From an uncultured bacterium (GTDB taxonomy: Bacteria; Patescibacteriota; Minisyncoccia; UBA6257; 2-01-FULL-56-20): a stretch of DNA of 64,000 nucleotides. Below the pieces are notes generated by a model. The model saw nothing but the letters and a program-made list of their open reading frames with translations, ran no database searches and was not told the origin of the DNA. Shown piece after piece: positions 2,753 through 49,107 of this stretch. The stretch spans positions 250,902 to 314,901 of the forward strand of contig CAVRXN010000002.1 of NCBI GenBank assembly GCA_963725235.1. The letters run 5' to 3'. The first letter of the stretch is position 1; each line of letters starts with the position of its first letter. Made by a program: the position numbers and the translations under genes.

Positions 2753-3289
2753 ATGTCCGCCCTCGCCCCCCTCAACCAGTCCCTCTTCCTCTGGCTCCAC
2801 CACTTCGCCGGCCGGTGGCCGTTGCTCGACGGCACGGCGATATTCTTCGCTGAGTGGTTGCCGTGGTTGCTATGCGCAGCATTTCTCGTTCTCGTCCTAT
2901 ACCAACCCGGCGCGCGCCGCAAACTCTATCTCTTCGCCGAGGGCGCGCTCGCGATCATCCTCGCGCGCGGCATCATCACAACCGCGATCCACTTCTTCTA
3001 TTACCACGCGCGCCCGTTCGTCGTTTACAGCTTCGCGCCGTTGATCAATGAGTCCGGCTCATCCTTCCCGTCGGCACATGCCGCATGGTTCTTCGCGCTC
3101 GCGACGACCGTCTGGTACGCGAACCGGACGTGGGGCTGGTGGTTCTTCGCGCTCGCGACGCTGATGGGCATCGCGCGCATCTACGCCGGCGTCCATTTTC
3201 CACTCGACATCATCGGCGGCGCAGTGATCGGCTGGGCGGCGGGGTGGTTTGTCCACTGGCTTTTGAAAAAACAGCGCGAGGCGATTTGA
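2753..3289 (+). CDS. PAP2-family lipid phosphatase (BcrC/undecaprenyl-diphosphatase-like)
   Basis: PAP2 motifs SFPSAHAA and ARIYAGVHFPLDIIGGA. Multiple TM helices. Confidence 0.8.
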   Translation: MSALAPLNQSLFLWLHHFAGRWPLLDGTAIFFAEWLPWLLCAAFLVLVLYQPGARRKLYLFAEGALAIILARGIITTAIHFFYYHARPFVVYSFAPLINESGSSFPSAHAAWFFALATTVWYANRTWGWWFFALATLMGIARIYAGVHFPLDIIGGAVIGWAAGWFVHWLLKKQREAI

Positions 3290-3356
3290 TGAAACAGAGT
3301 CAACGCAAAGAAAAAGCCCCCATCGGAATTTCAGGTGAGGGCTAAAAAATGACAGT

Positions 3357-4520
3357 TTATTTGTTCTTTCCCGCAGCCGCCCGCGAAGTTTTATTTCCCG
3401 ATACCGCGATCGGCTGAGGTGCCGGGGAAGGGCGATGTGATACTTCTTCTGGTCTCTGCGCCGTGACTTCACTGATCGGCAGATCTTCGCTCGATCTCGA
3501 GAAGACGAGCGAATGGATCTCATCGTAGTCGACATAGATGAAATCTCCCCGTCCGACTTGGTTGCTTGCTATCAGGTTTGAAAAAGGTGTAACGAGGTGA
3601 CGCTCGAGCGCGCGTTTGATATCCCGTGCGCCATATCTGATATCGGTACCTTCAGTTAGGAGAAAGTTCCGAGCCGAAGGGGTGAGTCGGAACAAAAATG
3701 GTTCAGCTATATTTCCGATTCTCCTCTGTATGTAATCGACTTCAATATCCAGGATTTGCTCAAGATCAATCGCTGTCAAAGGATGGAAGACGACAATCTT
3801 GTCGATACGGTTAATAAATTCGGGAGTGAATTTTTGCCGTGCCGCAGCATTGCCCACATTGCTGAGCTTTCGGTGCAGTTTGGTATCTGCGAGATCTGCA
3901 GGTTTACCCCCCGTGAATCCATATCCAGGATGGAGCATCTTACCCATTTCCACGGAGCCCAGATTGCTCGTCATGAAGATCATTGTCCGGGAAAAATCGA
4001 CCTTACGATTGTCGCCGAGTGTCAGTGTGGCTTTGTCGAGAATTCCCAGAAGGATATTCCAGAGGGCATCGCTTGCTTTTTCGATTTCATCGAAAAGAAC
4101 CAAGCTGAGCTTAATCGAATCGCCCCAGCAATGGTTCAGCACTTCTTGGCTCAAGAGCGGATGCGTCTCTCGATGCCCGAGATAGCCGGGAGGCGAACCG
4201 ATGAGCTTCGCAATTTCGTGGCTATGCTGGAATTCCGCGCAATCGATTTTTACAACCGCACGCGAGTTTTTGAACAGCGATTCCGCGGTTGCTTCGACGC
4301 TTCGCGTCTTTCCCGAACCCGTTGGCCCGAGAAAAAGAAAATTGGCAACAGGCCTTCCGAGAGCCGTCATGCCGGACAAAAATGATTGATACGCATCGGC
4401 AATCGCCCGAACTGCGGTATCTTGGCCAACGATCATCTTTCGGAGTTTCGTTAACAGTTCTTCACCTTCGGTGCCGCGTTGCGACGGGTCGAGCCGTTGC
4501 ATTTTGGGAGCCATAACCAA
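3357..4520 (-). CDS. Stand-alone AAA+ ATPase resembling the D2 module of ClpA/ClpB/ClpC
   Basis: Walker A GPTGSGKT, PPGYLGH, Walker B LVLFDEIEKA, FMTSNLG. No N-domain or D1 module within 387 aa. Confidence 0.8.
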   Translation of the reverse strand: MVMAPKMQRLDPSQRGTEGEELLTKLRKMIVGQDTAVRAIADAYQSFLSGMTALGRPVANFLFLGPTGSGKTRSVEATAESLFKNSRAVVKIDCAEFQHSHEIAKLIGSPPGYLGHRETHPLLSQEVLNHCWGDSIKLSLVLFDEIEKASDALWNILLGILDKATLTLGDNRKVDFSRTMIFMTSNLGSVEMGKMLHPGYGFTGGKPADLADTKLHRKLSNVGNAAARQKFTPEFINRIDKIVVFHPLTAIDLEQILDIEVDYIQRRIGNIAEPFLFRLTPSARNFLLTEGTDIRYGARDIKRALERHLVTPFSNLIASNQVGRGDFIYVDYDEIHSLVFSRSSEDLPISEVTAQRPEEVSHRPSPAPQPIAVSGNKTSRAAAGKNK

Positions 4521-33482: not shown

Positions 33483-34388
33483 ATGCCAACCGCGACAGGT
33501 TTAAAAAAAGCAAAAATAAATGCGCAAAAGAAGCCTGCAAAATCTTTAGAAAAATTTAATGGTGTTTTTGGTAATCTTAAGGAAAAGATTATGCAAAAAC
33601 CTTATTACGATAATCCAAGTTTTGTTCTCTACAATGGAGATTCTCTAAATATCTTGGCTCAGTTGCCGGAGAATTCAATAGATATGATATTTGCCGATCC
33701 GCCATATAACCTTTCAAATGGAGGATTTTCGGTTCATGCGGGCAAAATGGTCAGTGTAAATAAAGGAGATTGGGATAAAAGCAAAGGTTTCCAAGATGAT
33801 TATGATTTTCACTATAAATGGCTTGAAGCGGCTAGGCGTGTTTTAAAGCCGCATGGAACATTGTGGGTGAGTGGTACTTATCATTCGATTTATCAGTGCG
33901 GTCATGCCATTCAGGCGCTTGGATATCATATTTTAAATGATGTAGCTTGGTTCAAACCGAATGCTGCGCCGAATTTGAGCGCTCGATATTTTACGGCAAG
34001 TCATGAAACATTGATTTGGGCGCGTAAAGATAAAAAAGCAAAACATATCTTCAACTACAATTTGATGAAGAATGGAGATTGGAATGAAGATTTTCTCAAA
34101 AAACCGAATATGCAGATGAGATCGGTTTGGGCGATTGGAACTCCGAAGCCGGCAGAGAAAATTTTTGGCAAACATCCGACACAAAAACCGAGCGCGTTGC
34201 TCAACCGCATCGTTCTTGCGAGTACTAATAAAGGAGATATCATCCTCGATCCGTTCACTGGGAGCTCGACGACCGGTTTGGCGGCTCATCTTCAAGATAG
34301 AAAGTTTATTGGCATCGATACTGAAAAACAATTCTTAGATTTGTCAATAAAACGGTTCGAACAGTTATCCAGTGTTATGCTAGCTTGA
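33483..34388 (+). CDS. Type II DNA methyltransferase (N6-adenine or N4-cytosine, beta class)
   Basis: Motif IV FADPPYN precedes motif I ILDPFTGSSTTG, plus HPTQKP. The true start may be the internal ATG near 33591. Confidence 0.9.
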   Translation: MPTATGLKKAKINAQKKPAKSLEKFNGVFGNLKEKIMQKPYYDNPSFVLYNGDSLNILAQLPENSIDMIFADPPYNLSNGGFSVHAGKMVSVNKGDWDKSKGFQDDYDFHYKWLEAARRVLKPHGTLWVSGTYHSIYQCGHAIQALGYHILNDVAWFKPNAAPNLSARYFTASHETLIWARKDKKAKHIFNYNLMKNGDWNEDFLKKPNMQMRSVWAIGTPKPAEKIFGKHPTQKPSALLNRIVLASTNKGDIILDPFTGSSTTGLAAHLQDRKFIGIDTEKQFLDLSIKRFEQLSSVMLA

Positions 34389-34427
34389 TCTTCTGCCCGA
34401 TTGCTATATATTTGATCCGTACATACC

Positions 34428-34841
34428 ATGCCCCGAGATACTCGAACAGGCGGTGTTCTGGAAGCAATGATTTTGCCGTCTTTGGCTAGGGGCGGTTATC
34501 AAGCTCAATCACAGGTGCAAGTTGGCATCCGGTTGGGCGGTGGTGGCCGGCATTTTGTCGATGCAACGGCTCAGAAGGAAGAAAAGAAATATCTCGTTTC
34601 TTTAAAATGGCAACAAACCTCCGGAACCGCAGAGCAAAAAGTTCCGTTTGAAATTATTTGCTTAATTGATGCTGTCGAAACTCATGGATACGATAAGGCG
34701 TATTTAGTGCTCGGCGGAGAAGGATGGACCTTGAGAGATTTTTATGTTGGAGGTGGGCTGAAGAAATATCTGCCTCATGATAAAGTAGAGGTTATGACGT
34801 TGGAAGGATTTGTGGCGAAGGCGAATAAGGGATTGCTGTAA
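34428..34841 (+). CDS. Putative type II restriction endonuclease (PD-(D/E)XK-like)
   Basis: Lies 39 nt downstream of the MTase on the same strand. HFVD ... VSLKWQ fits a D...(S/E)xK nuclease core. 137 aa. Confidence 0.55.
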   Translation: MPRDTRTGGVLEAMILPSLARGGYQAQSQVQVGIRLGGGGRHFVDATAQKEEKKYLVSLKWQQTSGTAEQKVPFEIICLIDAVETHGYDKAYLVLGGEGWTLRDFYVGGGLKKYLPHDKVEVMTLEGFVAKANKGLL

Positions 34842-34978
34842 TTATTTGACTTTTTATCCTTTGACGAACAGAATGCCACAACACATTATAGAAAGGGCTT
34901 ATAAAACTCATCAACTGAGGCATTTTGTTGTAAATCGTAATAAGATAAACTAAAAGAATATTTTAGGAATTAAAATTT

Positions 34979-37084
34979 ATGATAGACGTAATTCGCGGAG
35001 CTAATAAGAAGGAGAATTCGACGGCACAATTGGTTGAATACCTCCAGAAATATTTTTCATCAGGCACAGAAGCAGTCGTTTATATAGGATATCCCATCTT
35101 AAGCACTGCTGTTGGGGGGATAACACTTGACGCCGTTCTTGTCGCAGAATCTTATGGAATAATCGTTTTTGATTTAGTTGAAGGTACGTCATGCGGTGAT
35201 AGGACCGAGCAGAGAGATCAGTTGTTTGCCAATATGAAATCAAAGCTGATCCAAAACCCTGAACTAATGGAAAAGCGGGACCTCGGAGTTAGTTTAGAAG
35301 TTCTTACTTTTGCTCCTCAGGTAAAAAGTTCAGATGACATATCTGAAGACTTTATTAATACCTTAGATCTTTTATCGAAACGCCTTGATAAAATTAAAAA
35401 TGAGAAAAATGAGAAATATATCAGAAGTCTTATTTCGGTGATACAGGTAGTCACTAAACTTAACAGTTCACGGAGGCGACGTGTAAACAAACCTGATTCA
35501 AGAGGTGCTAAACTGAAAGAGCTTGAGGAATCTATAGCTAATCTGGATAGTAGGCAAAATCGAGCGGTTATCGAAACGGTAGACGGGCCACAGCGTATCA
35601 GGGGATTGGCAGGATCGGGAAAAACAATTATCTTAGCCTTGAAGGCTGCATACTTGCATTCTAGATATCCAGAATGGGACATTGCCATCACTTTTAATAC
35701 TCGATCCCTGAAACAGCAATTTGTTGATTTGGTTACCAAATTTACCATCGAGCAAAAGCGGGAAGATCCCGATTGGACCAAATTGAAGATTCTTCAATCT
35801 TGGGGTAGCCATGCATCAACTGGAATATATTATGAATTCTGTATGGCAAATAACGTGGAACCTCTTGATTATAAAAACGCAAACGCAAAAGCGCGAAATT
35901 TGTCTCCCCTTGGGTACGCCTGCTTAACAGCTTTAAATCATTTGATTGCAAGGAAAATAGAACCTATTCAAAAATACGATGCAATTTTGATAGATGAAGC
36001 TCAAGATTTATCGCCTCTATTTCTAAAGCTTTGTTACAAATTCTTGAAACCACCAAAAAGAATTATTTGGGCATATGATGAGTTACAAAATCTCAGCTTG
36101 TTAAGGATGCAGTCGCCACGGGAATTATTTGGAATTGAACTAAGCAACGACCAAGAAGCTGCCCAGCAAGATATAATACTTGATAGATGTTACCGAAACT
36201 CTCGGCCAGTTCTTGTTACTGCTCATGGCTTAGGTTTTGGAACTGTGCGTGAAGAAGGTTTAGTTCAGATGTTTGACGAGCCGTCGCTTTGGAAGGAGAT
36301 TGGCTATGAAGTAGAAGGGAAACTAGCTCAAAAAAATAAAGTTTCTCTATATAGAACAAAAGTAACCAGCCCACCCTTTTTAGAGGTACACTCTTCTGAG
36401 GATGATTTAATACAATTTCATAAGTTTACAGGCAGAGAAGAAGAAAGTGATTGGATTGCAGAGCAAATAGAAAAGAATTTAAGAGAAGACGAATTAACAA
36501 CTCGTGACATCGTGGTGATTAATTTAAATTCTCTTACGACGAAAGAAGACACTGCCCTTTTGAGGGCAAAACTTCTCGAGCGTGATATAAATAGCCACAT
36601 TGCTGGATTAACAACGTCGCCTGATCAATTCTTCAAAGATGATTCCATTGCGGTGACAGGCATTTATCGTGCTAAGGGCAATGAAGCTGCAATGGTTTAC
36701 GTTATGAATAGCGAATATGCGTATGGAGGAATTGAGTTGATAAAAAAGAGAAATATGTTATTTTCCGCAATTACTCGTAGTAGGGCGTGGGTTCGTGTGG
36801 CCGGTTGTGGATTACAAATGGACGCACTAATTAAGGAGTTTGAAGGTATAAAAAATGCAGGGTTTAGGCTATCTTTCATATATCCAACTCCAGAAGAAAT
36901 GCAGCGAATGAGGTTGATTAATAGGGATCTTACTGAAAATGAAAAAAAGAGGAAACAAAAATCACTTTACGACATTGAACAGCTTACCGCAGCACTTGAA
37001 AGTGGAGATGTTCTCATTGAAGATATTGACCCACAGACAAAGCAAAAATTATCCTTATTACTGAAACAATCAAACGATGAGTAG
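34979..37084 (+). CDS. SF1 (UvrD-like) helicase with an N-terminal NERD-like domain, defence-type
   Basis: Walker A GLAGSGKT, Walker B ILIDEAQD, CYRNSRP, YRAKGNEA, ITRSRAW. The N-terminal ~110 aa are nuclease-related-domain-like. Confidence 0.8.
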   Translation: MIDVIRGANKKENSTAQLVEYLQKYFSSGTEAVVYIGYPILSTAVGGITLDAVLVAESYGIIVFDLVEGTSCGDRTEQRDQLFANMKSKLIQNPELMEKRDLGVSLEVLTFAPQVKSSDDISEDFINTLDLLSKRLDKIKNEKNEKYIRSLISVIQVVTKLNSSRRRRVNKPDSRGAKLKELEESIANLDSRQNRAVIETVDGPQRIRGLAGSGKTIILALKAAYLHSRYPEWDIAITFNTRSLKQQFVDLVTKFTIEQKREDPDWTKLKILQSWGSHASTGIYYEFCMANNVEPLDYKNANAKARNLSPLGYACLTALNHLIARKIEPIQKYDAILIDEAQDLSPLFLKLCYKFLKPPKRIIWAYDELQNLSLLRMQSPRELFGIELSNDQEAAQQDIILDRCYRNSRPVLVTAHGLGFGTVREEGLVQMFDEPSLWKEIGYEVEGKLAQKNKVSLYRTKVTSPPFLEVHSSEDDLIQFHKFTGREEESDWIAEQIEKNLREDELTTRDIVVINLNSLTTKEDTALLRAKLLERDINSHIAGLTTSPDQFFKDDSIAVTGIYRAKGNEAAMVYVMNSEYAYGGIELIKKRNMLFSAITRSRAWVRVAGCGLQMDALIKEFEGIKNAGFRLSFIYPTPEEMQRMRLINRDLTENEKKRKQKSLYDIEQLTAALESGDVLIEDIDPQTKQKLSLLLKQSNDE

Positions 37085-37712
37085 ATTAGCAAATGAAATA
37101 AGAAGTGAGATATCATCCCTGACTCAGCTTTTGACTCAGGAAAGTCTATCTATCGATTCTCGTATTGCGCAACTCCAGATGCGAAATGGTATCTGCGAGG
37201 TGGGATGGTCAAAAAATGGACCCAATATTGCTTTAGCATTAAAAGATATCGGCTATTCGGAGTGTCATAAATATTTTTTTAGCAATCAGCAATATAATTT
37301 AATCTTACCTGACGGCGCGTTACTTCAGTTTCTTTACAGATTCGAAAAAGAGAAATTAATAGAGCATAGGGTTTCTTATATGCCCGCCCCTACAGATTTT
37401 GATGACAATGAGGAATTCGATATTGCTTCGAACGCAGCTCTACCGATTAGAATCGATTTTTCTCCAGATCAAGCTGTGCTCATAAATCACTCTGCGGCTC
37501 ATGTTCATTTGGGACACAATGTAGACTGGCGAATTCCGACTTCGGCTCCCATAACGCCTAAAGATTTTACACTTTTTATATTAAGAAGTTTTTATGCAGA
37601 TAAGCTTTCGCCAAAAATTATAACTGCCCTGTGTCAATCGCGTTCAGCCTTCCCCGAATCCATTGAAGAGATCGAAAAAGAAGCCATATATATTAAAGTA
37701 CCGAGCATTTGA
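37077..37712 (+). CDS. Hypothetical protein translationally coupled to the helicase (possible DUF2290-type partner)
   Basis: The start overlaps the helicase stop by 8 nt (ATGAGTAG). 211 aa. The family assignment rests on the two-gene architecture only. Confidence 0.55.
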   Translation: MSRLANEIRSEISSLTQLLTQESLSIDSRIAQLQMRNGICEVGWSKNGPNIALALKDIGYSECHKYFFSNQQYNLILPDGALLQFLYRFEKEKLIEHRVSYMPAPTDFDDNEEFDIASNAALPIRIDFSPDQAVLINHSAAHVHLGHNVDWRIPTSAPITPKDFTLFILRSFYADKLSPKIITALCQSRSAFPESIEEIEKEAIYIKVPSI

Positions 37713-37811
37713 AAAATCTTTAATGTATGTAGGTTTACAATGAAATAATCTTTTATGAAGAGATTATTCGAAATATTACGGGTTATTAAAACGATTCCGC
37801 ACTCATTTGCT

Positions 37812-37921
37812 ATCTTGTTTCCTCCACCCCCGCACGCCGTGAGCACGGTCGGACGTGATGGGTAAGGTGTTGTGGGCGATGTCGCAACTGCCGGGTCACG
37901 GGGGATTGGTGAGAGGAAGAT
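37812..37921 (+). repeat. GC-rich long-hairpin element, copy C
   Basis: ATCTTgtttCCTCCACCCCCG ... CGGGGGATTGGTGAGAGGaAGAT. A C-rich 5' arm pairs with a G-rich 3' arm, set in AT-rich surroundings. Confidence 0.6.
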
Positions 37922-38008
37922 TTAGATAAATAAAAGGGGGAGTAACCTGGATGGCACTCCCCGGCGGTGACATATTCTTTTTTTGAACAGGATTCACTGC
38001 CATTGAGG

Positions 38009-38173
38009 TTATTTGCGTTTCTCGTCTCGCGCTTTAAACTTCACCTCAACTTTTTCCTTAACCATTTCATGCGCCTTGAAAGAAACAGGGCCGTTCTTGG
38101 TTTCAAACGAAACCCGTATGGGCTCTTTCTTTGGCTTTTCGGCGTAGAAATCAACTAAATGTTTTTTAGCCAT
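38009..38173 (-). CDS. Possible 54-aa lysine-rich protein downstream of lexA
   Basis: Translation MAKKHLVDFYAEKPKKEPIRVSFETKNGPVSFKAHEMV... No clear SD. The opposite-strand track ORF 37967..38158 looks non-coding. Confidence 0.25.
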   Translation of the reverse strand: MAKKHLVDFYAEKPKKEPIRVSFETKNGPVSFKAHEMVKEKVEVKFKARDEKRK

Positions 38174-38236
38174 GGAAATTTTATTAATTTTGGGTAGCTA
38201 CCGTCGACCTTCGCGGTAGATTAATTTCTAGGATAA

Positions 38237-38845
38237 TCATTGGGAGATATTTTTAATAACATCGATGACCACTCCTTGAATTGCGAATCCAGTATTCCCG
38301 CTTCTTACGATAATCGGCTCCATTTTTTTATTTGCTGGTTGCAGGCGAATATGATCTTTTTCTTGGAAGAATGTTTTTAGTGTTGTTTCATAGTTATCGA
38401 TGAGAGCAACAACTTTTTCGCCATTATGCGCGATAGACTGATCTCTAACTAAGATGATGTCGCCATCATTGATATGTTCATCAATCATGCTTTCTCCAAC
38501 AACTTTTAATGCATAGATTCCTTCTAGGGACTGAGGTAATCTACTTCTTGGGACGGCGATAATTTCCTGTCCTTCTGTTATCGCTTCAATCGGCTGGCCC
38601 GCTGCAACTCTGCCAAGTAAAGGTATCTGAATTAAGTGATCTGATTTGATATGGAGAGAGCGTGCTTTATTTATCCCCGTGCCGAGATAGCCTTTCTCGC
38701 GCAATTTTTCTATATGCTCTTGGACGGTTCCTAAAGAGGTGACACCTAAATGATTGGCGATTTCCCTGAGAGATGGAGCTACGCCTCGTTTAGTGATCTG
38801 TATTCCAATAAAATCGAGGATTTCTTTTTGACGTTTAGTTAACAT
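38237..38845 (-). CDS. lexA: LexA-like S24 autopeptidase repressor
   Basis: Winged HTH PSLREIANHLGVTSLGTVQEHIEKL, Ala-Gly cleavage site VAAGQP, Ser nucleophile GESM, Lys in TTLKTF. Confidence 0.85.
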   Translation of the reverse strand: MLTKRQKEILDFIGIQITKRGVAPSLREIANHLGVTSLGTVQEHIEKLREKGYLGTGINKARSLHIKSDHLIQIPLLGRVAAGQPIEAITEGQEIIAVPRSRLPQSLEGIYALKVVGESMIDEHINDGDIILVRDQSIAHNGEKVVALIDNYETTLKTFFQEKDHIRLQPANKKMEPIIVRSGNTGFAIQGVVIDVIKNISQ

Positions 38846-38878
38846 GATGTTTTAATATGGTTAATATTGACCTATGGC

Positions 38879-38907
38879 TTGACTTGCGGGTCATTTACGG
38901 GTACTAT
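38879..38907 (+). promoter_or_regulatory. Sigma70-like promoter of the cyclase operon
   Basis: TTGACT (38879-38884), 17-nt spacer, TACTAT (38902-38907). Confidence 0.45.
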
Positions 38908-38910
38908 CTC

Positions 38911-38939
38911 ATTGTAATTCAGGAATGCTGTTTTGGCAA
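38911..38939 (-). promoter_or_regulatory. Sigma70-like promoter of lexA, overlapping the cyclase promoter
   Basis: Minus-strand TTGCCA (38939-38934), 17-nt spacer, TACAAT (38916-38911). The two -10 boxes are 3 bp apart on opposite strands. Confidence 0.45.
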
Positions 38940-38978
38940 GGAATGATAATTGCTTTATAAAATTAATCAAAAACTAAC

Positions 38979-39800
38979 ATGAATGATTTTGAAGAAAAGC
39001 TTTTCGTCGATGGCGTTTTAGAAATAGTCGATGAAGCCGATAAGAGATACGCGGCAGGTGTATCCATCGAAAAAAAAGATTTTATACCCCTGACGGATTC
39101 TATGCCGCTGGAAACAAATACTTGGTGGAGGGTGGATGACGTGGTGTGCTTGTACATCGACATGAAAGATTCAACCAAGCTATCCGTCCAGCATAAAGAT
39201 AAAGTTGCGGCAAAGATATATCAATATTTTACGGGAACGGCAGTAAAAATTCTGGATCACTTCGGGGCTTCTTATATCGATGTTCGCGGTGACGGAGCGT
39301 TTGGTTTGTTTGACAAAAATAAGATTTATCATGCATTTTCTGCTGCTATAACTTTTAAAACTATCGTTATGAAATATCTCAGCGAGGCCACAAAGGATGA
39401 CGATGTAAAAATTACTTGCCATCTCGGTATGGATATAAAAACTGTTTTGGTTAAGCGAATTGGTATGCGAAAGGTGGCTGGAAAATCAACAAAACAAAAT
39501 GAAGTATGGGCAGGGAAGCCGGTTAATATGGCTGCCAAGCTGGCATCAAAAGGAGATGCTAATCAATTGTTAATTTCCGAGCGGGTGTATTCAATTTTCG
39601 AGAAAGATGGGTCGGATCTAATTTTGTGGACTTGTGGATGTGGCAACATCGAAAAACCAGGCGAAAAAGTTCCGATTTGGAAGAAGATGGAATTAGAATC
39701 ACCGATTTTTGATTTTGCAGAAGCTTATTCCATGGAAAATTGTTGGTGCGAAAGTCATGGTAGCGAGTTTTGTTTTGGCATAATGGATTTGGATAAATAA
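38979..39800 (+). CDS. Class III nucleotidyl cyclase (Pycsar PycC-like), paralogue 1
   Basis: Metal Asp motifs LYIDMKDSTKL and VRGDGAFGLF, GKPVNMAAKLAS (Asn present, Lys where Arg is usual), LLISERVY. Confidence 0.8.
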   Translation: MNDFEEKLFVDGVLEIVDEADKRYAAGVSIEKKDFIPLTDSMPLETNTWWRVDDVVCLYIDMKDSTKLSVQHKDKVAAKIYQYFTGTAVKILDHFGASYIDVRGDGAFGLFDKNKIYHAFSAAITFKTIVMKYLSEATKDDDVKITCHLGMDIKTVLVKRIGMRKVAGKSTKQNEVWAGKPVNMAAKLASKGDANQLLISERVYSIFEKDGSDLILWTCGCGNIEKPGEKVPIWKKMELESPIFDFAEAYSMENCWCESHGSEFCFGIMDLDK

Positions 39801-39807
39801 TACTTAC

Positions 39808-40311
39808 ATGGGAAATACTCACAAAGAAATTACTATTGGGCGCGCAGAAAGCAATCTACAGCGGCAACTAGATTGGATCGGTCGATATGACGCCAGAATT
39901 TCGTTTGTAACGGGCATATGCATAGGTATGATTGGTTTATTGGTCGGTATAGTTCCTGCACCCGATAAGTGGACAACGGTTCTATGTATATCATTTTTTG
40001 CCACTATTGGCTTACTGATCGTGAGTCTTGTCTATGTTTACCTAGGTCAATATCCAAAAACGGATTCACCGAATCAATCCCTTCTTTTCTTTGGCACGAT
40101 TGCCAAGTTAAAACATGATGAATTCAATAAAAATTTTAAAGCAGCTTCAGACGATGATTATTTAGAGGATTTGCTTTCGCAGTGTCATATTAATGCTCAA
40201 ATCTTAAGTAAGAAATTTTATGTTTTTAAAAGAGCCTTGATATTAATGCTAATTGCGGTTGTTCCGTGGGCGATAGCTATTTATATAGTTAAATTGATAC
40301 CAGTGTCATAA
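39808..40311 (+). CDS. Three-TM small membrane protein (candidate PycTM-type effector)
   Basis: 167 aa. TM helices ISFVTGICIGMIGLLVGIV, WTTVLCISFFATIGLLIVSLVYVYL and ALILMLIAVVPWAIAIYIV. There is no room for a CAP-type cNMP-binding domain. Lies 7 nt after cyclase 1 and 4 nt before cyclase 2. Confidence 0.6.
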   Translation: MGNTHKEITIGRAESNLQRQLDWIGRYDARISFVTGICIGMIGLLVGIVPAPDKWTTVLCISFFATIGLLIVSLVYVYLGQYPKTDSPNQSLLFFGTIAKLKHDEFNKNFKAASDDDYLEDLLSQCHINAQILSKKFYVFKRALILMLIAVVPWAIAIYIVKLIPVS

Positions 40312-40315
40312 TCAA

Positions 40316-41023
40316 ATGGATTGGCCCGAAATATTAACAAATGAAGCCGAGGAAATCTTGACGACTAAATGGGATGAACGCGCTGGAAGTGTTGTCCCAG
40401 AATCCGATAGCGTTACCCTTAAGGATGGAGCGGTTAAAATTGATGCTACATTTTTATATGCTGATCTTGCTGGATCGTCGAAATTAGCAAGATTTTGTCC
40501 ATGGCAGACTACTGCAAAAATAATCCGTGCATATCTTTCGTGTTCGGTTCGGTTAATCAAAGCTTATGGAGGAGAGGTTCGTAGTTTTGACGGCGACCGT
40601 GTGATGGGTATTTTTATGGGAGATTTGAAAAATACTTATGCAGTAAGATGTGCACGGGAAATTGATTGGGTGGTAGAAAAGATAATCAATCCGAAAGCCA
40701 AGGAAAAATTTGAATCAGTAAGGAAGAACGGAATTGCAATTCGACATTGTGTTGGAATAGATACAGGAGAAACAGTCGCTGTACGTGCGGGGGTTCGCAA
40801 CAATAACGATCTTATCTGGATTGGGCGAGCGCCTAGCTTAGCGGCAAAACTTTCCGACATTCGCGCCTTTCCATATACTATCTATATAAGCAAAGATATA
40901 TATGGAGTTTTAGGAGCTACGGAAAAAGTTGTGAATAATACGCTGATTTGGGAGGAGGAAAATTTTATCTTCGCTGGTGATAATTTATCTGTTTACAGAA
41001 CTTCGTATTATCGAACTCCTTAA
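40316..41023 (+). CDS. Class III nucleotidyl cyclase, paralogue 2 (divergent catalytic set)
   Basis: LYADLAGSSKL, FDGDRVMGIF, GRAPSLAAKLSD (Ser at the usual Asn position), IYISKDIY. Confidence 0.75.
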   Translation: MDWPEILTNEAEEILTTKWDERAGSVVPESDSVTLKDGAVKIDATFLYADLAGSSKLARFCPWQTTAKIIRAYLSCSVRLIKAYGGEVRSFDGDRVMGIFMGDLKNTYAVRCAREIDWVVEKIINPKAKEKFESVRKNGIAIRHCVGIDTGETVAVRAGVRNNNDLIWIGRAPSLAAKLSDIRAFPYTIYISKDIYGVLGATEKVVNNTLIWEEENFIFAGDNLSVYRTSYYRTP

Positions 41024-41029
41024 TTTTAT

Positions 41030-41168
41030 CTTACCCACCCCTCCCAGCCCCGCACCCGCACCCACCTCCAATCTGCCCACGGCGTTGTGGTAGCGCACGG
41101 TCATCGTCTGCCGCACCCGCCGGGCCCGCGCGTGCGTGGCGGGAGGGGGATTGGGGGAGGGAATTAAG
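41030..41168 (+). repeat. GC-rich long-hairpin element, copy A (contains a G4 motif)
   Basis: CTTACCCACCCCTCCCAGCCCC ... GGGAGGGGGATTGGGGGAGGGaatTAAG. A 55-nt core (41108-41162) matches copy B at 53/55 positions. Confidence 0.7.
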
Positions 41169-42445: not shown

Positions 42446-42537
42446 CCTCCCGCCCCTTTCGCCTCATTCACCACCCTGCCGCACCCGCCGGGCCCGCGCG
42501 TGCGTGGCGGGAGAGGGATTGGGGGAAGGATGTTTAG
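42446..42537 (+). repeat. GC-rich hairpin element, copy B
   Basis: CCTCCCGCC ... GGCGGGAGAGGGATTGGGGGAAGGA. The core at 42476-42530 matches copy A at 53/55 positions. Confidence 0.7.
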
Positions 42538-44660: not shown

Positions 44661-47296
44661 ATGAAAGACAAAATCATCATCAAAGGTGCGCGGGAACACA
44701 ATCTGAAAAATATCTCGCTTGAATTGCCGCGGGACAAGATGATCGTGTTCACTGGGCTTTCGGGTTCGGGGAAATCGTCGCTCGCGTTCGACACGATTTT
44801 CGCCGAAGGCCAGCGCCGCTATATCGAATCGCTGTCCGCTTACGCGCGGCAGTTTTTGGGCCGCCTCGATAAGCCGGACGTGGACGACATCGAGGGCTTG
44901 TCGCCGGCGATTTCGATCGACCAGAAATCGCCATTCGGCGAATCCGCGCTCGACGGTCGCGACGATCACGGAAATTTACGATTATCTTCGCGTGCTTTTT
45001 GCGCGCGCGGGAAAGCCGTATTGCCCGACGCTGCGGCCGAGAAATCCGCAAACTGACGAACGAAGAGATCGTCGACGTCGCGATCGAGTTCGCGGATGAG
45101 AGTAATGACAGGCAAGAAGCAAGTTGAAGTCGCGGTCGGAAAAAAGCGCATCATCGGCGGAAATTTATTGATCCTGGCGCCGGTCGTCCGCGGCCGGAAA
45201 GGGGAGTATTACCAGATGCTCTATGATTTCCTGAACGCCGGATTCAGCGAAGTGCGCGTCGACGGCAAATATCATTCGCTCCGCGAGCGCGTCGAACTCT
45301 CGCGCTACAAAGCGCACAACATCGATCTCGTCGTCGACCGCATTCCGGGCGGCATGGATTTCAAAGAAAAAGATAATCGGTTGCGCTTGTCCGAAGCGAT
45401 CGAGTCCGGCTTGAAATATGGCGAAGGCGTCGTCACGATCATTGCGAGCGGCACGGTGCAAGAGAAGAAGCGCCGCTGGAACAAAGAGGTTTCGTTGTCC
45501 GCAAAATTCACCTGTCCGAACGACGGCTTTTCGTTCCCGGAAATCGAGCCGCGCCTGTTCTCTTTCAATAGCCCGTATGGCGCATGTCCGGAATGCCATG
45601 GCCTCGGCACGAAAGATTTATGGTCCGAAGAAATTTGTCCGGTCTGCGACGGCAAGCGTCTGCGCGAAGAAAGTTTGAACGTTTTGATCGATGGAAAAAA
45701 TATCGTTACCGTCACGGCATATTCGATCGAGGACGCGCTCGAGTTTTTTAAAAAACTGGAATCATCGTTTTTCGCGCAAAAAAAGAATGCGTCGCTTGCC
45801 GAAGTTGCCGAAGCGCCGCTCCGAGAGATTAAAGCCGATTAAAATTCATGATGGATGTCGGTCTGGAATATCTGACGCTCGACCGCAAAGCGGGGACGCT
45901 CTCCGGCGGCGAAGCGCAGCGAATCCGGCTCGCGTCGCAGATCGGCTCGCGCCTCGTCGGCACGCTCTATATATTAGATGAGCCGACGATTGGCCTGCAT
46001 CAGCGCGACAACGCGAAACTGATCAAAACGCTCCAGGATCTGCGCGATCTCGGCAACACGATCATCGTCGTCGAACACGACGAAGACACGATCCGCGCGT
46101 CGGATTATCTCGTGGACATCGGCCCGGCGGCGGGCGTGCATGGCGGCCAAGTCGTCGCGCAGGGCCCGATCCCGGAAATATTAAAAGATCCTGAAACAAA
46201 ATTCGCTCGACGCTGCAATATTTGCGCGGCAAGAAATTTATCGAGGTGCCGGAAAAGCGGCGGCAAGTCGATTTCAAGAAAATCGAGAGTATCAAAGATC
46301 CGCGGCGCGCACGCAGAACAATTTAAAAGATGTTAACGTCGATATTCCGTTGCGACGCTTCACGGCGGTGACCGGCGTTTCCGGCTCCGGCAAAGTCGAG
46401 TTTGGTCTACGACGTTTTGTACAAAGCGGTTGCGGACAAGCTCAATCGATCAGCGTGAACCGGCTACAAACCGGTCGGCTACAAATCCATCCTCGGCCTC
46501 GAATACATCAAGCGCATCATCAACATCGACCAGGCCGCGATCGGCCGCACGCCGCGCTCGAACCCCGCGACCTACGTCGGCGCGTGGACGCACATCCGCG
46601 ACCTGTTCGCCTCATCCGAAGACGCGCGCGTGCGCGGCTACAAGCCGGGCCGGTTCAGCTTCAACGTTCCCGGCGGCCGCTGCGAAAATTGCGAAGGCCA
46701 TGGCACGATCGCGATCGAAATGCACTTCTTGCCGACGGTTTACGTCACGTGCGACATCTGCAAAGGCAAACGCTTCGACCGTGAAACGCTCGAAGTGGAA
46801 TACAAAGGCAAAAATATTTATGACATCCTCCAGCATGACGGTCGAGGAAGCCGTCAAATTCTTCGAAGATATTCCGTGGCTGTTCGAGAAATTTAAAATC
46901 CTCGAAGAGGTCGGCTTGGGATATCTCGAACTCGGCCAGTCGGCGACGACGTTGTCCGGCGGCGAAGCACAACGGATTAAGCTTTCCGCCGAGCTCGGCA
47001 AGCGCGACACGCGCCGGACGTTATACTTACTCGACGAACCGACGACCGGTTTACATTTCGCCGACATCGACCAACTATTAAAAGTTTTACAGCGCCTCGT
47101 CGACCGCGGCAACACAGTCGTCGTTATCGAACACAATCTCGATGTCATCAAGACCGCCGACTGGGTCATCGACCTCGGTCCCGAAGGCGGCGCGCGCGGC
47201 GGCAAGATCATCGCGACTGGAACGCCGGAAGAGATCGCACGGAAGGCGGGGAGCTTTACGGGGCAGTACTTGCGGAAAGTGTTGCAGAAATCATGA
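44661..47296 (+). pseudogene. uvrA: Excinuclease ABC subunit A, heavily disrupted (about 9 frameshifts plus 1 in-frame TGA)
   Basis: UvrA motifs are spread over three frames. They include [129 protein letters not shown] and [12 protein letters not shown]. Track pieces are 44661..45056, 45096..45842, 45848..46336, 46350..46784, 46630..46896 and 46430..47296. Confidence 0.9.
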
Positions 47297-47346
47297 ATTT
47301 ATGGTAAGATAGAATCCGGACCTTAGATTCGAAAGGGGGATTACAT

Positions 47347-47745
47347 TTGAAGACGATAATATCTGTGTTTGCCGGCCTTTTGGGCACAACGGCAACTATT
47401 GGGGGAGGCCTCATGGTGGGATGGATTTGGTATTTCACGAAGCTTCCGCCAAACGTCGTGTTACTGTTCGATTTTTTCGAGCAGTCGTTGCCCGACCCAC
47501 ATAGCTTGACGGGCAAAGTAGTCGGAACAATAATCGGGGTGCTGTTTATGATCGGAGGCCTCTACTGCCTAAAATCAGTTAAGTCTTTCAGATCAAAAGA
47601 TTCCGAGGAGGACTACGACTATCGCTGCGAATCGGAACAATCACCTCGTGATGCAGCTCGTCGCAGGCAAACCATTTACGACAGGTATTGCGCTGCCAAT
47701 GGCGATGCAGAGCCGCGACCCGTGCGACCCATAGCGCGGCAGTGA
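47347..47745 (+). CDS. Membrane protein (hypothetical)
   Basis: AAGGGGG before the TTG start. Three hydrophobic segments and a charged tail. Confidence 0.45.
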   Translation: MKTIISVFAGLLGTTATIGGGLMVGWIWYFTKLPPNVVLLFDFFEQSLPDPHSLTGKVVGTIIGVLFMIGGLYCLKSVKSFRSKDSEEDYDYRCESEQSPRDAARRRQTIYDRYCAANGDAEPRPVRPIARQ

Positions 47746-47829: not shown

Positions 47830-49107
47830 ATGAAAAACCCATTTGCAAAAACATCAATTCCATACAAAAAGCTTCCGGACTCACCGGGCGTCTACATTAT
47901 GAAAGACGCGGGCGACCGCGTGCTCTACGTCGGCAAAGCAGGCAACTTACGCCGGCGGGTTTCGAGCTACTTCGAGCGGCCACATGATGTCCGGATCGAA
48001 ACACTTGTCAACAAAATTGCAACAATCGACCACGAAAAAACCGACACCGCACTCGAAGCGTTGATCCTCGAAGCGGAGTTGATTCGGAAGCTGACACCGC
48101 CATTCAACATCAAAGAAAAAGATGACAAAAGTTTTTTGTATGTCGGGATAACGCGCGACAAATTTCCGCGCGTGTTACTCGTTCGCCGGACCGACGCTGC
48201 ATTTTCTTCGCGGACCGCCGCGCAGTACGGCCCATTCACGTCGGCCTCGTCCGCCCGCGAGGCGATGAAAATCTTGCGGAAAATTTTCCCGTGGTCAACA
48301 CATGATCCCGAACGCATCGGCACATTCGAGCGGCCGTGTTTCGACTACGAAATCGGTTTGTGCCCGGGGACATGCATTGGCGCGATCACGCGTGAGGATT
48401 ATCTGAAGAACATCGACCGGCTAAAATTATTTTTCGAAGGCAAGAAGAAGCAAGTGATCCGAGCAATCGAAAAAGATATGGCTACCGCAGCACGGGCACT
48501 CGACTTCGAACGCGCCGCGAAGCTGCGCCACCAGCTCTTCGCGTTAAAACATATCCGCGATACCGCGTTGATTTCTGATGCGAGCGCGACAATCGTTTTG
48601 CCCACCGATGATGAAAAAAATATTAAAACAGGAGGCGTCGGCACACCCTACCGCATCGAGGGCTACGACATCTCAAACATCTCCGGCACATCGGCCGTCG
48701 GCTCGATGGTGGTTTTTGAAAATGGCGAACCAAACAAAAACGAATATCGAAAGTTCAAAATTCGCACGATTTTCAAACCGAATGACGTCGGCATGTTGAC
48801 CGAAGTGCTCGAGCGGCGATTTAAACATGGCACCGAACCAACCGGCTGGTCGCTGCCAAACTTGATATTAATAGATGGCGGTATCGCGCAGGCGAACGCC
48901 GCGAAAAAAGTGCTGATGCGGGCTGGATTGCGCATCCCGATCCTCGGTATTGCGAAGGGTGCAGAGCGAAAACGGAACGATATCCTCGGCGCGATCCCGC
49001 GCGGCAGCGGCGTTACGAAGGAAATTTTAATCCGCGTGCGCAACGAGGCGCACCGGTTTGCGATCGGGTATCATAAAAAGCTCCGCGCGTGGACGACGCT
49101 GCAATAA
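47830..49107 (+). CDS. uvrC: Excinuclease ABC subunit C (compact, no C-terminal HhH2)
   Basis: GIY-YIG domain GVYIMKD..VLYVGKAGNLRRRVSSY. UVR domain FERAAKLRHQL. RNase H-like endonuclease domain IEGYDISNISG. Confidence 0.85.
   Translation: MKNPFAKTSIPYKKLPDSPGVYIMKDAGDRVLYVGKAGNLRRRVSSYFERPHDVRIETLVNKIATIDHEKTDTALEALILEAELIRKLTPPFNIKEKDDKSFLYVGITRDKFPRVLLVRRTDAAFSSRTAAQYGPFTSASSAREAMKILRKIFPWSTHDPERIGTFERPCFDYEIGLCPGTCIGAITREDYLKNIDRLKLFFEGKKKQVIRAIEKDMATAARALDFERAAKLRHQLFALKHIRDTALISDASATIVLPTDDEKNIKTGGVGTPYRIEGYDISNISGTSAVGSMVVFENGEPNKNEYRKFKIRTIFKPNDVGMLTEVLERRFKHGTEPTGWSLPNLILIDGGIAQANAAKKVLMRAGLRIPILGIAKGAERKRNDILGAIPRGSGVTKEILIRVRNEAHRFAIGYHKKLRAWTTLQ

What the first reader, a model, noticed from the sequence alone, without database searches (positions are those of the whole stretch)
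38237..41023. Cyclase / 3-TM protein / cyclase operon: a Pycsar-like cassette with two divergent class III cyclase paralogues
Three genes are packed with gaps of 7 and 4 nt. They are a 273-aa cyclase, a 167-aa three-TM protein and a 235-aa second cyclase. Both cyclases carry the two metal-binding Asp motifs (IDMKDST/RGDGAF and ADLAGSS/FDGDRVMG). They differ at the transition-state motif: paralogue 1 keeps Asn (PVNMAAKL) and paralogue 2 has Ser (APSLAAKL), and both have Lys where Arg is usual. Described Pycsar systems pair one cyclase with one effector, so I do not recognise a two-cyclase layout around a minimal TM protein. Class III cyclases act as dimers, so an obligate heterodimer with one asymmetric active site, or production of two different cyclic nucleotides, are both testable ideas. 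The TM protein is too short for a canonical cNMP-binding domain, so how a signal would be sensed is open.
Basis: partly seen in the sequence, partly recalled or inferred. Interest (0 to 1): 0.8.

Follow-up and report, generated by a model that had tools for sequence, protein, structure and literature searches.

The report
Two-cyclase Pycsar phage-defence operon
This is a Pycsar anti-phage operon in a candidate-phyla-radiation bacterium in which two unrelated pyrimidine-cyclase genes flank a single membrane-effector gene, an uncharacterised but recurrent variant of a known defence system.

Summary
The three genes are real: C1 38979-39800, TM 39808-40311, C2 40316-41023, with gaps of 7 and 4 nt. 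The stated start, 38237, wrongly takes in a divergent lexA gene.

All three match Pycsar models strongly. C1 is a clade-D PycC with a zinc ribbon (closest structure 8JSZ). C2 is a clade-B-like PycC (closest structure 7R65). The middle gene is a 3-TM PycTM effector.

The layout is not unique. Every sampled relative in C1's own subclade carries a second cyclase. About 16% of clade-D loci and 7% of C2-type loci have two cyclases. A 2026 preprint mentions such loci in one sentence.

The window is a chimera. Its TM and C2 are 60% and 74% identical to a plain two-gene TM-C2 system. They are only 22-33% identical to the partners usual for C1's subclade.

The Asn-to-Ser change in C2 is the norm for its family, including two-gene systems. 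It therefore does not indicate an asymmetric heterodimer.

Both cyclases keep their clade's uridylate-type pocket residues or conservative variants. My best reading is two autonomous sensor cyclases feeding one effector. A heterodimer is not excluded.

This is a new variant of a known kind, of moderate interest.

The parts
38979..39800 (+). C1: PycC cyclase of clade D type (273 aa). Metal-binding Asp61 and Asp105, Asn183 and Lys187, and a C-terminal Cys-Cys-Cys-His zinc ribbon.
   Evidence: PADLOC PycC model PDLC00763 at E 3e-92. Pfam Guanylate_cyc at 1.2e-8, above the curated cut-off. Matches PDB 8JSZ, a uridylate cyclase (AnPycC), at E 1.8e-60 over residues 8-272. The catalytic and zinc-binding residues are invariant or nearly invariant in alignment A1.
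39808..40311 (+). PycTM effector (167 aa, three predicted TM helices)
   Evidence: Pfam PycTM PF18967 at 4e-13, 50.1 bits against a cut-off of 27.2. PADLOC 2TM effector and PycTM models at 1e-40 and 2e-36. Hydropathy scan shows three hydrophobic segments. It is 60% identical to the TM protein of the two-gene system in L165.
40316..41023 (+). C2: PycC cyclase of clade-B-like type (235 aa). Asp50 and Asp94, Ser174 in place of the transition-state Asn, Lys178, and pocket residues Tyr48, Asp92 and Arg95.
   Evidence: PADLOC PycC model PDLC00766 at E 1.7e-85. Matches PDB 7R65 (BcPycC) at E 2e-39. Pfam Guanylate_cyc scores only 14.8 bits, below the cut-off of 21.9. It is 74% identical to the cyclase of the two-gene TM-C2 system in L165.
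38846..38978 (.). 133-nt intergenic region shared by lexA and the operon. It holds a promoter-like site, TTGACT-17-TACTAT, at 38879-38907 on the + strand, and an imperfect palindrome, GGTTAATATTGACC, at 38859-38872.
   Evidence: Consensus scan, inverted-repeat search and the sequence itself. These are pattern matches only. Function is inferred.
38237..38845 (-). LexA repressor gene, transcribed divergently from the operon. It is a possible regulator of the operon (inferred, not shown).
   Evidence: NCBIfam TIGR00498 lexA equivalog at 185.7 bits against a cut-off of 110.95. Pfam LexA_DNA_bind plus Peptidase_S24. LexA-family genes adjoin related Pycsar cassettes in L001, L004, L081, L169 and L170.
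33483..41023 (.). Low-GC defence island that carries the operon. In order: type II methyltransferase (33483-34388), PD-(D/E)XK nuclease (34428-34841), helicase (34979-37084), DUF2290 protein (37077-37712), lexA, then the Pycsar operon.
   Evidence: GC is 0.37-0.46 per gene against about 0.52-0.56 in the flanks, with sharp edges at about 33.48 and 41.02 kb. Pfam and PADLOC hits support the gene identities.

Best explanation
This is a three-gene Pycsar abortive-infection operon on a horizontally acquired defence island in a Patescibacteria (Paceibacteria-like) chromosome. Two catalytically competent PycC cyclases of different clades share one 3-TM PycTM effector.

**Shown**
- The family assignments of all three genes.
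- Intact catalytic residues in both cyclases.
- Tight operon packing.
- C1 belongs to a cyclase subclade that always travels with a second cyclase.
- The window's TM and C2 come from a different lineage, one that normally forms two-gene systems. The operon is therefore a recombinant in which the TM-cyclase pair was replaced.

**Inferred**
- Each cyclase works on its own as a homodimer and is silent until infection.
- Each responds to its own phage cue.
- Both make the same messenger, most likely cUMP.
- Either one can trigger PycTM to damage the membrane and abort the infection.
- Two sensors on one effector would widen the range of phages detected or make escape harder.
- The divergent lexA may tie expression to DNA damage.
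For: **Identity**
- PADLOC PycC models match at E 3e-92 and 1.7e-85, and PycTM/2TM effector models at 1e-40.
- Pfam PycTM is above its cut-off.
- Closest solved structures are 8JSZ and 7R65.
- Restriction-modification and helicase-DUF2290 genes lie alongside on a low-GC island.

**Autonomy of each cyclase**
- C1 is a close relative of AnPycC. That enzyme is a homodimer, makes cUMP alone in vitro, and defends with AnPycTM alone (PMC11224242).
- C2's nearest relatives (58-74% identity) sit in two-gene TM-C2 operons with no other cyclase.

**Catalytic residues and pocket**
- Both cyclases keep both metal-binding Asp residues.
- C2 keeps the BcPycC pocket residues Tyr50, Asp94 and Arg97.
- C1 has Tyr, Arg and Phe at the AnPycC positions Phe60, Lys104 and Phe109.
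- Clades A-D are reported to make cUMP (PMC11224242).

**Module replacement**
- Window TM and C2 are 60% and 74% identical to L165, but only 22-30% and 26-33% identical to the TM and second cyclase of C1's own subclade.
- C1 nevertheless nests inside that subclade in a neighbour-joining tree.
- A partner only about 30% identical could be swapped in with the gene order kept. This fits communication through a diffusible messenger better than a co-evolved protein interface.

**Recurrence**
- All 12 leaves of C1's subclade have a second cyclase or its remnant.
- Second cyclases arose at least five further times elsewhere in clade D.
Against:
- Class III cyclase cores can heterodimerise even at low identity; the mammalian C1 and C2 domains do (my own knowledge). 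The partner swap therefore does not rule out a C1:C2 heterodimer.
- In the related loci L001 and L163 the second cyclase has lost the transition-state Asn and Lys but kept the metal-binding Asp residues. That is the pattern expected of a heterodimer partner or a pseudo-enzyme.
- Substrate specificity cannot be read safely from clade membership, because a sister branch makes cGMP (preprint).
- This exact C1 + TM + C2 combination was seen only once, in this genome, so it may be recent and not yet tested by selection.
Confidence: 0.5

Rival explanations
1. C1 and C2 form an obligate or preferred heterodimer with two non-equivalent active sites. One site would use C1's Asn/Lys with C2's Asp pair. 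The other would use C2's Ser/Lys with C1's Asp pair.
For: - The genes are packed closely enough for translational coupling.
- C1's whole subclade is always found with a second cyclase.
- In L001 and L163 the partner cyclase keeps the Asp pair but has Tyr and Glu in place of Asn and Lys. This resembles the division of labour in heterodimeric class III cyclases.
Against: - In the window both proteins keep the full residue set typical of their own families.
- The Ser is the family norm in two-gene systems.
- The main three-gene family (L003, L004, L161, L168, L169, L171, L172) shows no complementary loss of residues.
- C2 replaced a partner only about 30% identical to it.
- Relatives of both proteins work, or are encoded, as lone cyclases (PMC11224242).
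Confidence: 0.2
2. The two cyclases act in sequence or make two different messengers. One could be activated by the other's product, giving a relay or amplification. Alternatively PycTM could integrate two different cyclic nucleotides, or one cyclase could guard against phage cNMP-degrading enzymes.
For: - The Pucsar preprint raises relay-like or locally amplified signalling for multi-cyclase loci.
- Second cyclases in the main three-gene family have FNGDG where BcPycC has the pocket motif YDGDR and C2 has FDGDR. Partners of C1-type cyclases could therefore differ in substrate.
Against: - The window's C2 keeps the FDGDR pocket and C1 keeps a clade-D-like pocket, so both are predicted to be uridylate-type.
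- Neither cyclase has an identifiable cNMP-binding or regulatory domain beyond the catalytic core and the zinc ribbon.
Confidence: 0.12
3. C1 is a passenger. The working system is the canonical TM-C2 pair, and C1 is a leftover of a recombination event that removed its own partners and contributes nothing.
For: - This exact combination was found only in this genome.
- TM and C2 are a co-inherited pair in many two-gene loci.
- L170 shows that members of this family do decay, since its second cyclase is reduced to a 92-aa remnant.
Against: - The C1 ORF is intact, with all catalytic and zinc-ribbon residues.
- It lies 7 nt upstream of TM behind the only intergenic promoter-like site.
- The C1-TM-cyclase order typical of its subclade is preserved.
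Confidence: 0.12
4. It is an ordinary housekeeping cAMP/cGMP signalling module unrelated to phage defence.
For: The Pfam hit is to the generic Guanylate_cyc domain, and source databases label relatives 'class 3 adenylate cyclase'.
Against: - Matches to Pycsar-specific models are very strong.
- A PycTM effector lies between the cyclases.
- The setting is a low-GC island with restriction-modification and helicase-DUF2290 genes.
- Relatives sit beside restriction systems and serine recombinases.
Confidence: 0.02

Closest known systems
Clade-D Pycsar of Anabaena sp. (AnPycC + AnPycTM; PDB 8JSZ; Hou et al. 2024, PMC11224242)
   Same: C1 matches AnPycC at E 1.8e-60 across the full length. It shares the two metal-binding Asp residues, the Asn/Lys pair and the Cys-Cys-Cys-His zinc ribbon. 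The effector is a small PycTM protein.
   Different: The Anabaena system, and the cyanobacterial loci in my survey, have one cyclase and one TM gene. Here a second, unrelated cyclase follows the TM gene. The TM protein is at most 36% identical to any TM protein that sits next to a clade-D cyclase.
[quoted passage not shown]
   Same: C2 matches it at E 2e-39. It keeps the pocket residues Tyr50, Asp94 and Arg97 and both metal-binding Asp residues.
   Different: C2 and its family have Ser where BcPycC has the transition-state Asn. C2's family pairs with PycTM. I could not determine whether C2 belongs to clade B or clade C of Tal et al. 2021, because that paper is not held in the library.
Two-gene TM-C2 Pycsar operons (for example L165, L081, L083, L085, L174)
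   Same: The window's TM and C2 are 45-60% and 58-74% identical to these pairs. They share the TM-then-cyclase order and very short gaps.
   Different: None of these loci has a clade-D cyclase upstream.
Three-gene C1-TM*-C2* family in Patescibacteria and related metagenome contigs (L003, L004, L161, L168, L169, L171, L172)
   Same: Same gene order, and the same C1 subclade at 52-65% identity to the window's C1. The packing is equally tight or overlapping.
   Different: Their TM and second cyclase belong to other lineages, 24-30% and 29-33% identical to the window's. Their second cyclase has Asn rather than Ser, and an FNGDG rather than FDGDR pocket motif.
'Multiple cyclases' in Pycsar-1 loci (bioRxiv 10.64898/2026.08.12.744502)
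   Same: The preprint states that some Pycsar-1 loci encode several cyclases, and that PycTM-type effectors are 3-TM proteins of the pJV1-spdB3 family.
   Different: It is a single sentence suggesting relay or amplification. The text I read gives no architecture, phylogeny, partner analysis or experiment for these loci.
Thoeris systems with several TIR sensor genes and one effector
   Same: The logic is the same: several sensor-synthases feed one effector. PMC13069673 cites this arrangement as a way to recognise different phages.
   Different: The enzymes and messengers are unrelated. The likeness is in how it may work, not in family membership.
Heterodimeric class III cyclases (mammalian adenylyl cyclase C1 and C2 domains; from my own knowledge)
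   Same: Two divergent class III catalytic domains are encoded together.
   Different: Those partners have complementary losses of catalytic residues. The window's two cyclases do not.

Membership tests
Pycsar | A PycC-type class III cyclase with the two metal-binding Asp residues | tested here: met
   Both cyclases match PADLOC PycC models (E 3e-92 and 1.7e-85) and solved PycC structures. Both Asp residues are present in each.
Pycsar | An adjacent effector of PycTM or PycTIR type in the same operon | tested here: met
   Pfam PycTM at 50.1 bits against a cut-off of 27.2. PADLOC effector models at 1e-40. Same strand, with gaps of 7 and 4 nt.
Pycsar | One cyclase paired with one effector, as in all characterised systems | tested here: not met
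   Two cyclase genes flank a single effector gene. This is a matter of layout, not of membership.
Pycsar | Synthesis of cCMP or cUMP on phage infection | not testable with these tools
   Indirect evidence only. C2 keeps BcPycC Tyr50, Asp94 and Arg97. C1 has Tyr, Arg and Phe at the AnPycC positions Phe60, Lys104 and Phe109.
Pycsar | Protection against phage by abortive infection | not testable with these tools
   Needs heterologous expression and phage challenge.
Pycsar | Location among other defence genes | tested here: met
   A low-GC 7.5-kb island also carries a type II methyltransferase, a PD-(D/E)XK nuclease and a helicase-DUF2290 pair that matches PADLOC models.
PycC clade D (C1) | C-terminal Cys-Cys-Cys-His zinc ribbon, as in AnPycC C221, C223, C260 and H263 | tested here: met
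   The alignment to 8JSZ shows TCGC and CWCESH. C219, C221 and C257 are invariant and H260 is at least 90% conserved in A1.
PycC clade D (C1) | UTP pocket residues Phe60, Lys104 and Phe109 | tested here: inconclusive
   C1 has Tyr59, Arg103 and Phe108, that is two conservative changes. Arg is the majority residue at that position in A1.
PycC clade B-like (C2) | Pyrimidine-selecting residues Tyr50, Asp94 and Arg97 of BcPycC | tested here: met
   Tyr48, Asp92 and Arg95 are present in C2 and invariant in A2.
PycC clade B-like (C2) | Transition-state Asn in the GRAAN motif | tested here: not met
   C2 has Ser174. This residue is at least 90% conserved in C2's family, including two-gene systems.
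Heterodimeric class III cyclase | Complementary loss of catalytic residues in the two partners | tested here: not met
   C1 has Asp, Asp, Asn and Lys. C2 has Asp, Asp, Ser and Lys, as do its lone relatives. Complementary loss is seen only in the partner cyclase of L001 and L163.
Heterodimeric class III cyclase | Physical association of the two chains | not testable with these tools
   The structure tool predicts single chains only and accepts only window or database sequences.
LexA-regulated (SOS) gene | A bona fide LexA and a LexA operator in the promoter | tested here: inconclusive
   The LexA assignment is solid (TIGR00498 at 185.7 bits). No recognised LexA box was found. There is only an imperfect 14-nt palindrome at 38859-38872.

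The most novel reading that the evidence does not exclude
C1-type cyclases may be a dedicated 'add-on' lineage of clade-D PycC that has given up its own effector. Such a cyclase would work only in partnership with a resident TM-cyclase pair. The partnership could be a true heterodimer, or a second sensor plugged into another cyclase's effector through a shared messenger. The partner pair would be exchangeable between lineages, and in candidate-phyla-radiation bacteria the whole cassette would be placed under a LexA-family repressor, making cyclic-pyrimidine immunity responsive to DNA damage.
Probability: 0.25. Interest if true: 0.65.

Novelty: new variant of a known kind. Interest (0 to 1): 0.45.

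Why it matters
How Pycsar cyclases sense infection is not addressed in any of the papers I could read, and every system studied in those papers has one cyclase and one effector. A lineage that keeps two cyclases on one effector offers a natural experiment on sensing. This locus shows that the effector-cyclase pair in such an operon can be exchanged. Single and double catalytic mutants should show whether the two enzymes detect different phages, back each other up against phage nucleases, or form one composite enzyme.

The second cyclase falls below Pfam's threshold. Pfam-only annotation therefore misses it, which may be why the layout has drawn little attention.

The repeated link to LexA-family repressors suggests a testable route for controlling this immunity in bacteria with very small genomes.

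Tried and rejected
- **Founding paper.** Tal et al. 2021 (Cell) could not be read by DOI or PMC id. I cannot say whether it already lists two-cyclase operons. PADLOC's PycC models match all the second cyclases I tested (E 1e-38 or better), so such genes were probably already in the known PycC catalogue.
- **Literature searches.** Searches for two, second, dual or tandem cyclases with Pycsar, and for PycC1 or PycC2, returned only the one-sentence mention in the 2026 preprint. A LexA + Pycsar search found nothing specific.
- **NCBIfam.** It has no model for C1, TM or C2.
- **Rfam.** Only a tRNA was found in the window, so there is no riboswitch or regulatory RNA near the operon.
- **LexA operator.** The shared TTGACT/AAGTCAA elements in the window, L001 and L081 are best read as the -35 boxes of back-to-back promoters. 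I found no recognised LexA box. The three co-directional loci share a repeated TGTCAAC/GTTGACA motif upstream, which I did not validate.
- **Island ends.** No convincing att-like direct repeats bracket the island and no integrase lies within it. The only tRNA is 18 kb away.
- **Alternative genetic code.** I considered UGA read as Gly because uvrA is fragmented. I rejected it: the breaks include frameshifts and TAA stops, and island genes end in all three stop codons.
- **Multimer modelling.** Not attempted. The structure tool takes single chains drawn from the window or the database only.
- **Single-chain models.** Judged unnecessary, given the strong sequence matches to solved structures.


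Full report
**What is at the coordinates**

The ORF listing confirms three same-strand genes:
- C1 at 38979-39800 (273 aa).
- A middle gene at 39808-40311 (167 aa).
- C2 at 40316-41023 (235 aa).

The gaps are 7 and 4 nt. All three genes start with ATG and end with TAA. The middle protein has three hydrophobic segments. C1 and C2 are only 23% identical over 176 residues.

The finding's start coordinate is wrong in one respect. The stretch 38237-38845 is a lexA gene on the opposite strand (TIGR00498 at 185.7 bits against a cut-off of 110.95; Pfam LexA_DNA_bind plus Peptidase_S24). It is transcribed divergently across a 133-nt spacer.

The same operon also appears on a 2.8-kb contig assembled from sequencing run ERR11523662 (L190). 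This argues that the ORFs are not assembly artefacts. That matters because uvrA, a few kb away, is broken by frameshifts.

**Family assignment**

| Gene | Pfam | PADLOC | Closest solved structure |
|---|---|---|---|
| C1 | Guanylate_cyc, 1.2e-8, above cut-off | PycC PDLC00763, 3e-92 | 8JSZ, clade-D uridylate cyclase AnPycC, E 1.8e-60 |
| TM | PycTM, 50.1 bits against cut-off 27.2 | 2TM effector / PycTM, 1e-40 | none searched |
| C2 | Guanylate_cyc, 14.8 bits, below cut-off 21.9 | PycC PDLC00766, 1.7e-85 | 7R65, clade-B BcPycC, E 2e-39 |

- C1 shares the Cys-Cys-Cys-His zinc ribbon that Hou et al. (PMC11224242) describe as specific to clade D.
- The weak Pfam score for C2 explains why second cyclase genes carry no Pfam label in the precomputed annotations.
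- NCBIfam has no model for any of the three proteins.

This is a Pycsar system.

**Context**

The operon closes a 7.5-kb low-GC island, 33.48-41.02 kb. Its genes have GC of 0.37-0.46 against about 0.52-0.56 in the flanks. The island also carries:
- a type II methyltransferase;
- a PD-(D/E)XK nuclease;
- a helicase-DUF2290 pair that matches PADLOC models at E 1.5e-272 and 8e-40;
- lexA.

The flanks hold housekeeping genes: ftsA, ftsZ, alaS, uvrC, topA and relA/spoT. The named relatives of FtsZ are Candidatus Paceibacterota and Minisyncoccia. The host is therefore a Patescibacteria (candidate phyla radiation) bacterium, and the island is chromosomal.

**Is the two-cyclase layout conserved?**

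I anchored one survey on C1 and one on C2. The C1 survey used 80 loci from species-representative genomes. The C2 survey used 80 metagenome loci. I annotated all loci with profiles for C1, C2, TM and LexA.

| Survey | Loci | With a second cyclase next to the system | Notes |
|---|---|---|---|
| Clade-D (C1) anchored, genomes | 80 | 13 | Most loci are plain two-gene TM + cyclase systems |
| C2 anchored, metagenomes | 80 | 6 | Most are two-gene TM-C2 systems; none has a clade-D cyclase |
| C2-type on viral contigs | 14 | 3 | L177 is again cyclase-TM-cyclase |

All nine have a second cyclase or, in L170, a 92-aa remnant of one.

A neighbour-joining tree of 87 clade-D cyclases puts the window inside a 12-leaf clade in which every member has this trait. 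Second cyclases appear at least five more times elsewhere in the tree: L064, L051, L018, L041 and a Flavobacteria group.

The layout is therefore recurrent, and in C1's subclade it is ancestral. It is not unique to this window.

**The window is a recombinant**

Within C1's subclade the usual operon is C1-TM*-C2* (L003, L004, L161, L168, L169, L171, L172). The three genes co-vary. For example, L004 against L169 gives 78%, 63% and 82% identity for the three genes. A second form, C1-C2**-TM**, is found in L001, L002 and L163.

The window's C1 is sister to L161 at 65% identity. Its other two genes tell a different story:

| Window gene | Identity to partners usual for C1's subclade | Identity to two-gene system L165 | Identity to other two-gene TM-C2 loci |
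|---|---|---|---|
| TM | 22-30% | 60% | 45-52% |
| C2 | 26-33% | 74% | 58-69% |

The other two-gene loci compared are L081, L083, L085, L106 and L174. No TM protein next to a clade-D cyclase exceeds 36% identity to the window's.

The simplest history is that a TM-C2 pair from the two-gene lineage replaced TM*-C2* behind C1, with the gene order kept. I found this exact combination only in this genome.

**Catalytic residues**

An alignment of all the cyclases shows the following.
- C1 and its subclade keep both metal-binding Asp residues plus Asn and Lys.
- The usual partners (C2*) keep all four as well.
- The window's C2 has Asp, Asp, Ser and Lys.
- That Ser is at least 90% conserved across C2's family, most of which is in two-gene systems. 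It is a family trait, not a sign of a degenerate half-site.
- Lys in place of the canonical Arg is found in both solved PycC structures and in all but a few divergent second cyclases aligned.
- The only complementary-looking degeneration is in L001 and L163. There the partner cyclase keeps the Asp pair but has Tyr and Glu in place of Asn and Lys.
- For substrate choice, C2 keeps the BcPycC residues Tyr50, Asp94 and Arg97 as Tyr48, Asp92 and Arg95.
- C1 has Tyr59, Arg103 and Phe108 at the AnPycC positions Phe60, Lys104 and Phe109 (residues named in PMC11224242).
- Hou et al. state that clades A-D make cUMP and only clade E makes cCMP.

**How it most likely works**

Both window cyclases descend from lineages that function, or are encoded, as lone cyclases.
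- AnPycC is a homodimer that makes cUMP in vitro and defends with AnPycTM alone (PMC11224242).
- C2's relatives sit alone with their TM gene.

Both cyclases are catalytically intact, and both are predicted to be uridylate-type. A partner only about 30% identical could be swapped in.

I therefore favour two autonomous sensor cyclases that make the same messenger for one PycTM effector. This is analogous to Thoeris systems with several TIR sensors, as cited in PMC13069673. The effector step, membrane damage and abortive infection, follows from what is published on Pycsar. It was not tested here.

The rival explanations are:
- a C1:C2 heterodimer;
- relay or two-messenger signalling, which is the preprint's suggestion;
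- C1 as a non-functional passenger.

None of these can be excluded without multimer modelling or experiments.

**LexA link**

LexA-family genes adjoin Pycsar cassettes in two arrangements.
- **Divergent, canonical LexA type:** the window; L001 and L081, where LexA is fused to a DNA methyltransferase in an ORF of about 500 aa; and a fragment in L018.
- **Co-directional, first gene of the operon:** L004, L169 and L170, which carry a second LexA-like type. Its stop overlaps or abuts the start of C1, and it co-varies with C1 (73% against 78% for L004 and L169).

None of the other roughly 160 loci has such a gene. The loci are phylogenetically related, so this is suggestive and not proof. I found no recognised LexA box.

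**Prior knowledge and verdict**

The papers I could read describe Pycsar as one cyclase plus one effector (PMC11224242, PMC13069673). The only mention of multi-cyclase loci I found is one sentence in bioRxiv 10.64898/2026.08.12.744502. I could not read Tal et al. 2021.

The claim that the layout is unrecognised is softened. The argument from Ser to a heterodimer is not supported.

This is a new variant of a known kind, of moderate interest. Its most useful feature is the evidence for an exchangeable TM-cyclase module behind a cyclase lineage that always has a partner.

Noticed in passing
window 38237-38845 (-); L001 3378-4907; L081 2930-4438; L004 4346-4990; L169 3348-4004; L170 3355-3999: LexA-family repressor genes sit next to Pycsar cassettes in 5 of 11 loci of C1's subclade, and in one two-gene relative (L081). 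Some are divergent. Others are the first gene of the operon, with a stop that overlaps the C1 start. Apart from a fragment about 4 kb from the cassette in L018, none of the other roughly 160 surveyed loci has one.
   Followed up: partly
L001 3378-4907 (-) and L081 2930-4438 (-): These are single ORFs of about 500 aa. Each joins a complete LexA (DNA-binding domain plus S24 peptidase) to a DNA methyltransferase domain. I did not check whether they are true fusions or missed stop codons.
   Followed up: no
L001 5813-6529; L163 4813-5529: In the C1-cyclase-TM form of the system, the second cyclase keeps both metal-binding Asp residues. It has Tyr and Glu where the transition-state Asn and Lys should be. 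This is the pattern expected of a heterodimer partner or a pseudo-enzyme.
   Followed up: partly
L165 3504-4708 (also L166, L167): The two-gene TM-C2 Pycsar closest to the window's TM and C2 is inserted between the genes for elongation factors G and Tu, inside the conserved ribosomal-protein and translation-factor cluster.
   Followed up: no
L172 118-2442; L174 1405-2880; L170 1-454: Large serine recombinase genes lie directly beside related Pycsar cassettes. In L172 there is also a Rep-like gene, on a 5.7-kb contig. This suggests carriage on small mobile elements.
   Followed up: no
window 33483-37712: The same low-GC island carries a type II methyltransferase with a PD-(D/E)XK nuclease. It also carries a 701-aa UvrD-like helicase with a DUF2290 protein whose genes overlap by 8 nt. 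The helicase and DUF2290 match PADLOC models PDLC03002 (E 1.5e-272) and PDLC02999 (E 8e-40).
   Followed up: partly
window 41108-41162 and 42476-42530: A GC-rich 55-nt direct repeat, 96% identical, brackets a 1.37-kb segment immediately right of the island. The segment holds two minus-strand ORFs of 82 and 287 aa; the 287-aa ORF has no Pfam or PADLOC hit and the 82-aa ORF was not searched.
   Followed up: partly
window 44661-47700: uvrA is split into at least three pieces by frameshifts and in-frame stops (TGA and TAA). It is either a pseudogene or carries indel errors from the assembly. uvrC at 47830-49107 looks intact.
   Followed up: partly
L177 221-2174; L182 and L183 4998-7013: Contigs classed as viral carry multi-cyclase Pycsar cassettes built from two clade-B-like cyclases. 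L177 has the order cyclase-TM-cyclase, and L182 and L183 have cyclase-cyclase-TM.
   Followed up: no
L004 about 4270-4320; L169 about 3270-3320; L170 about 3280-3320: Upstream of the co-directional LexA-like genes there is a conserved repeated motif, TGTCAAC ... TGTCAAC ... GTTGACA. It overlaps a -35-like TTGACA and is a candidate operator.
   Followed up: no
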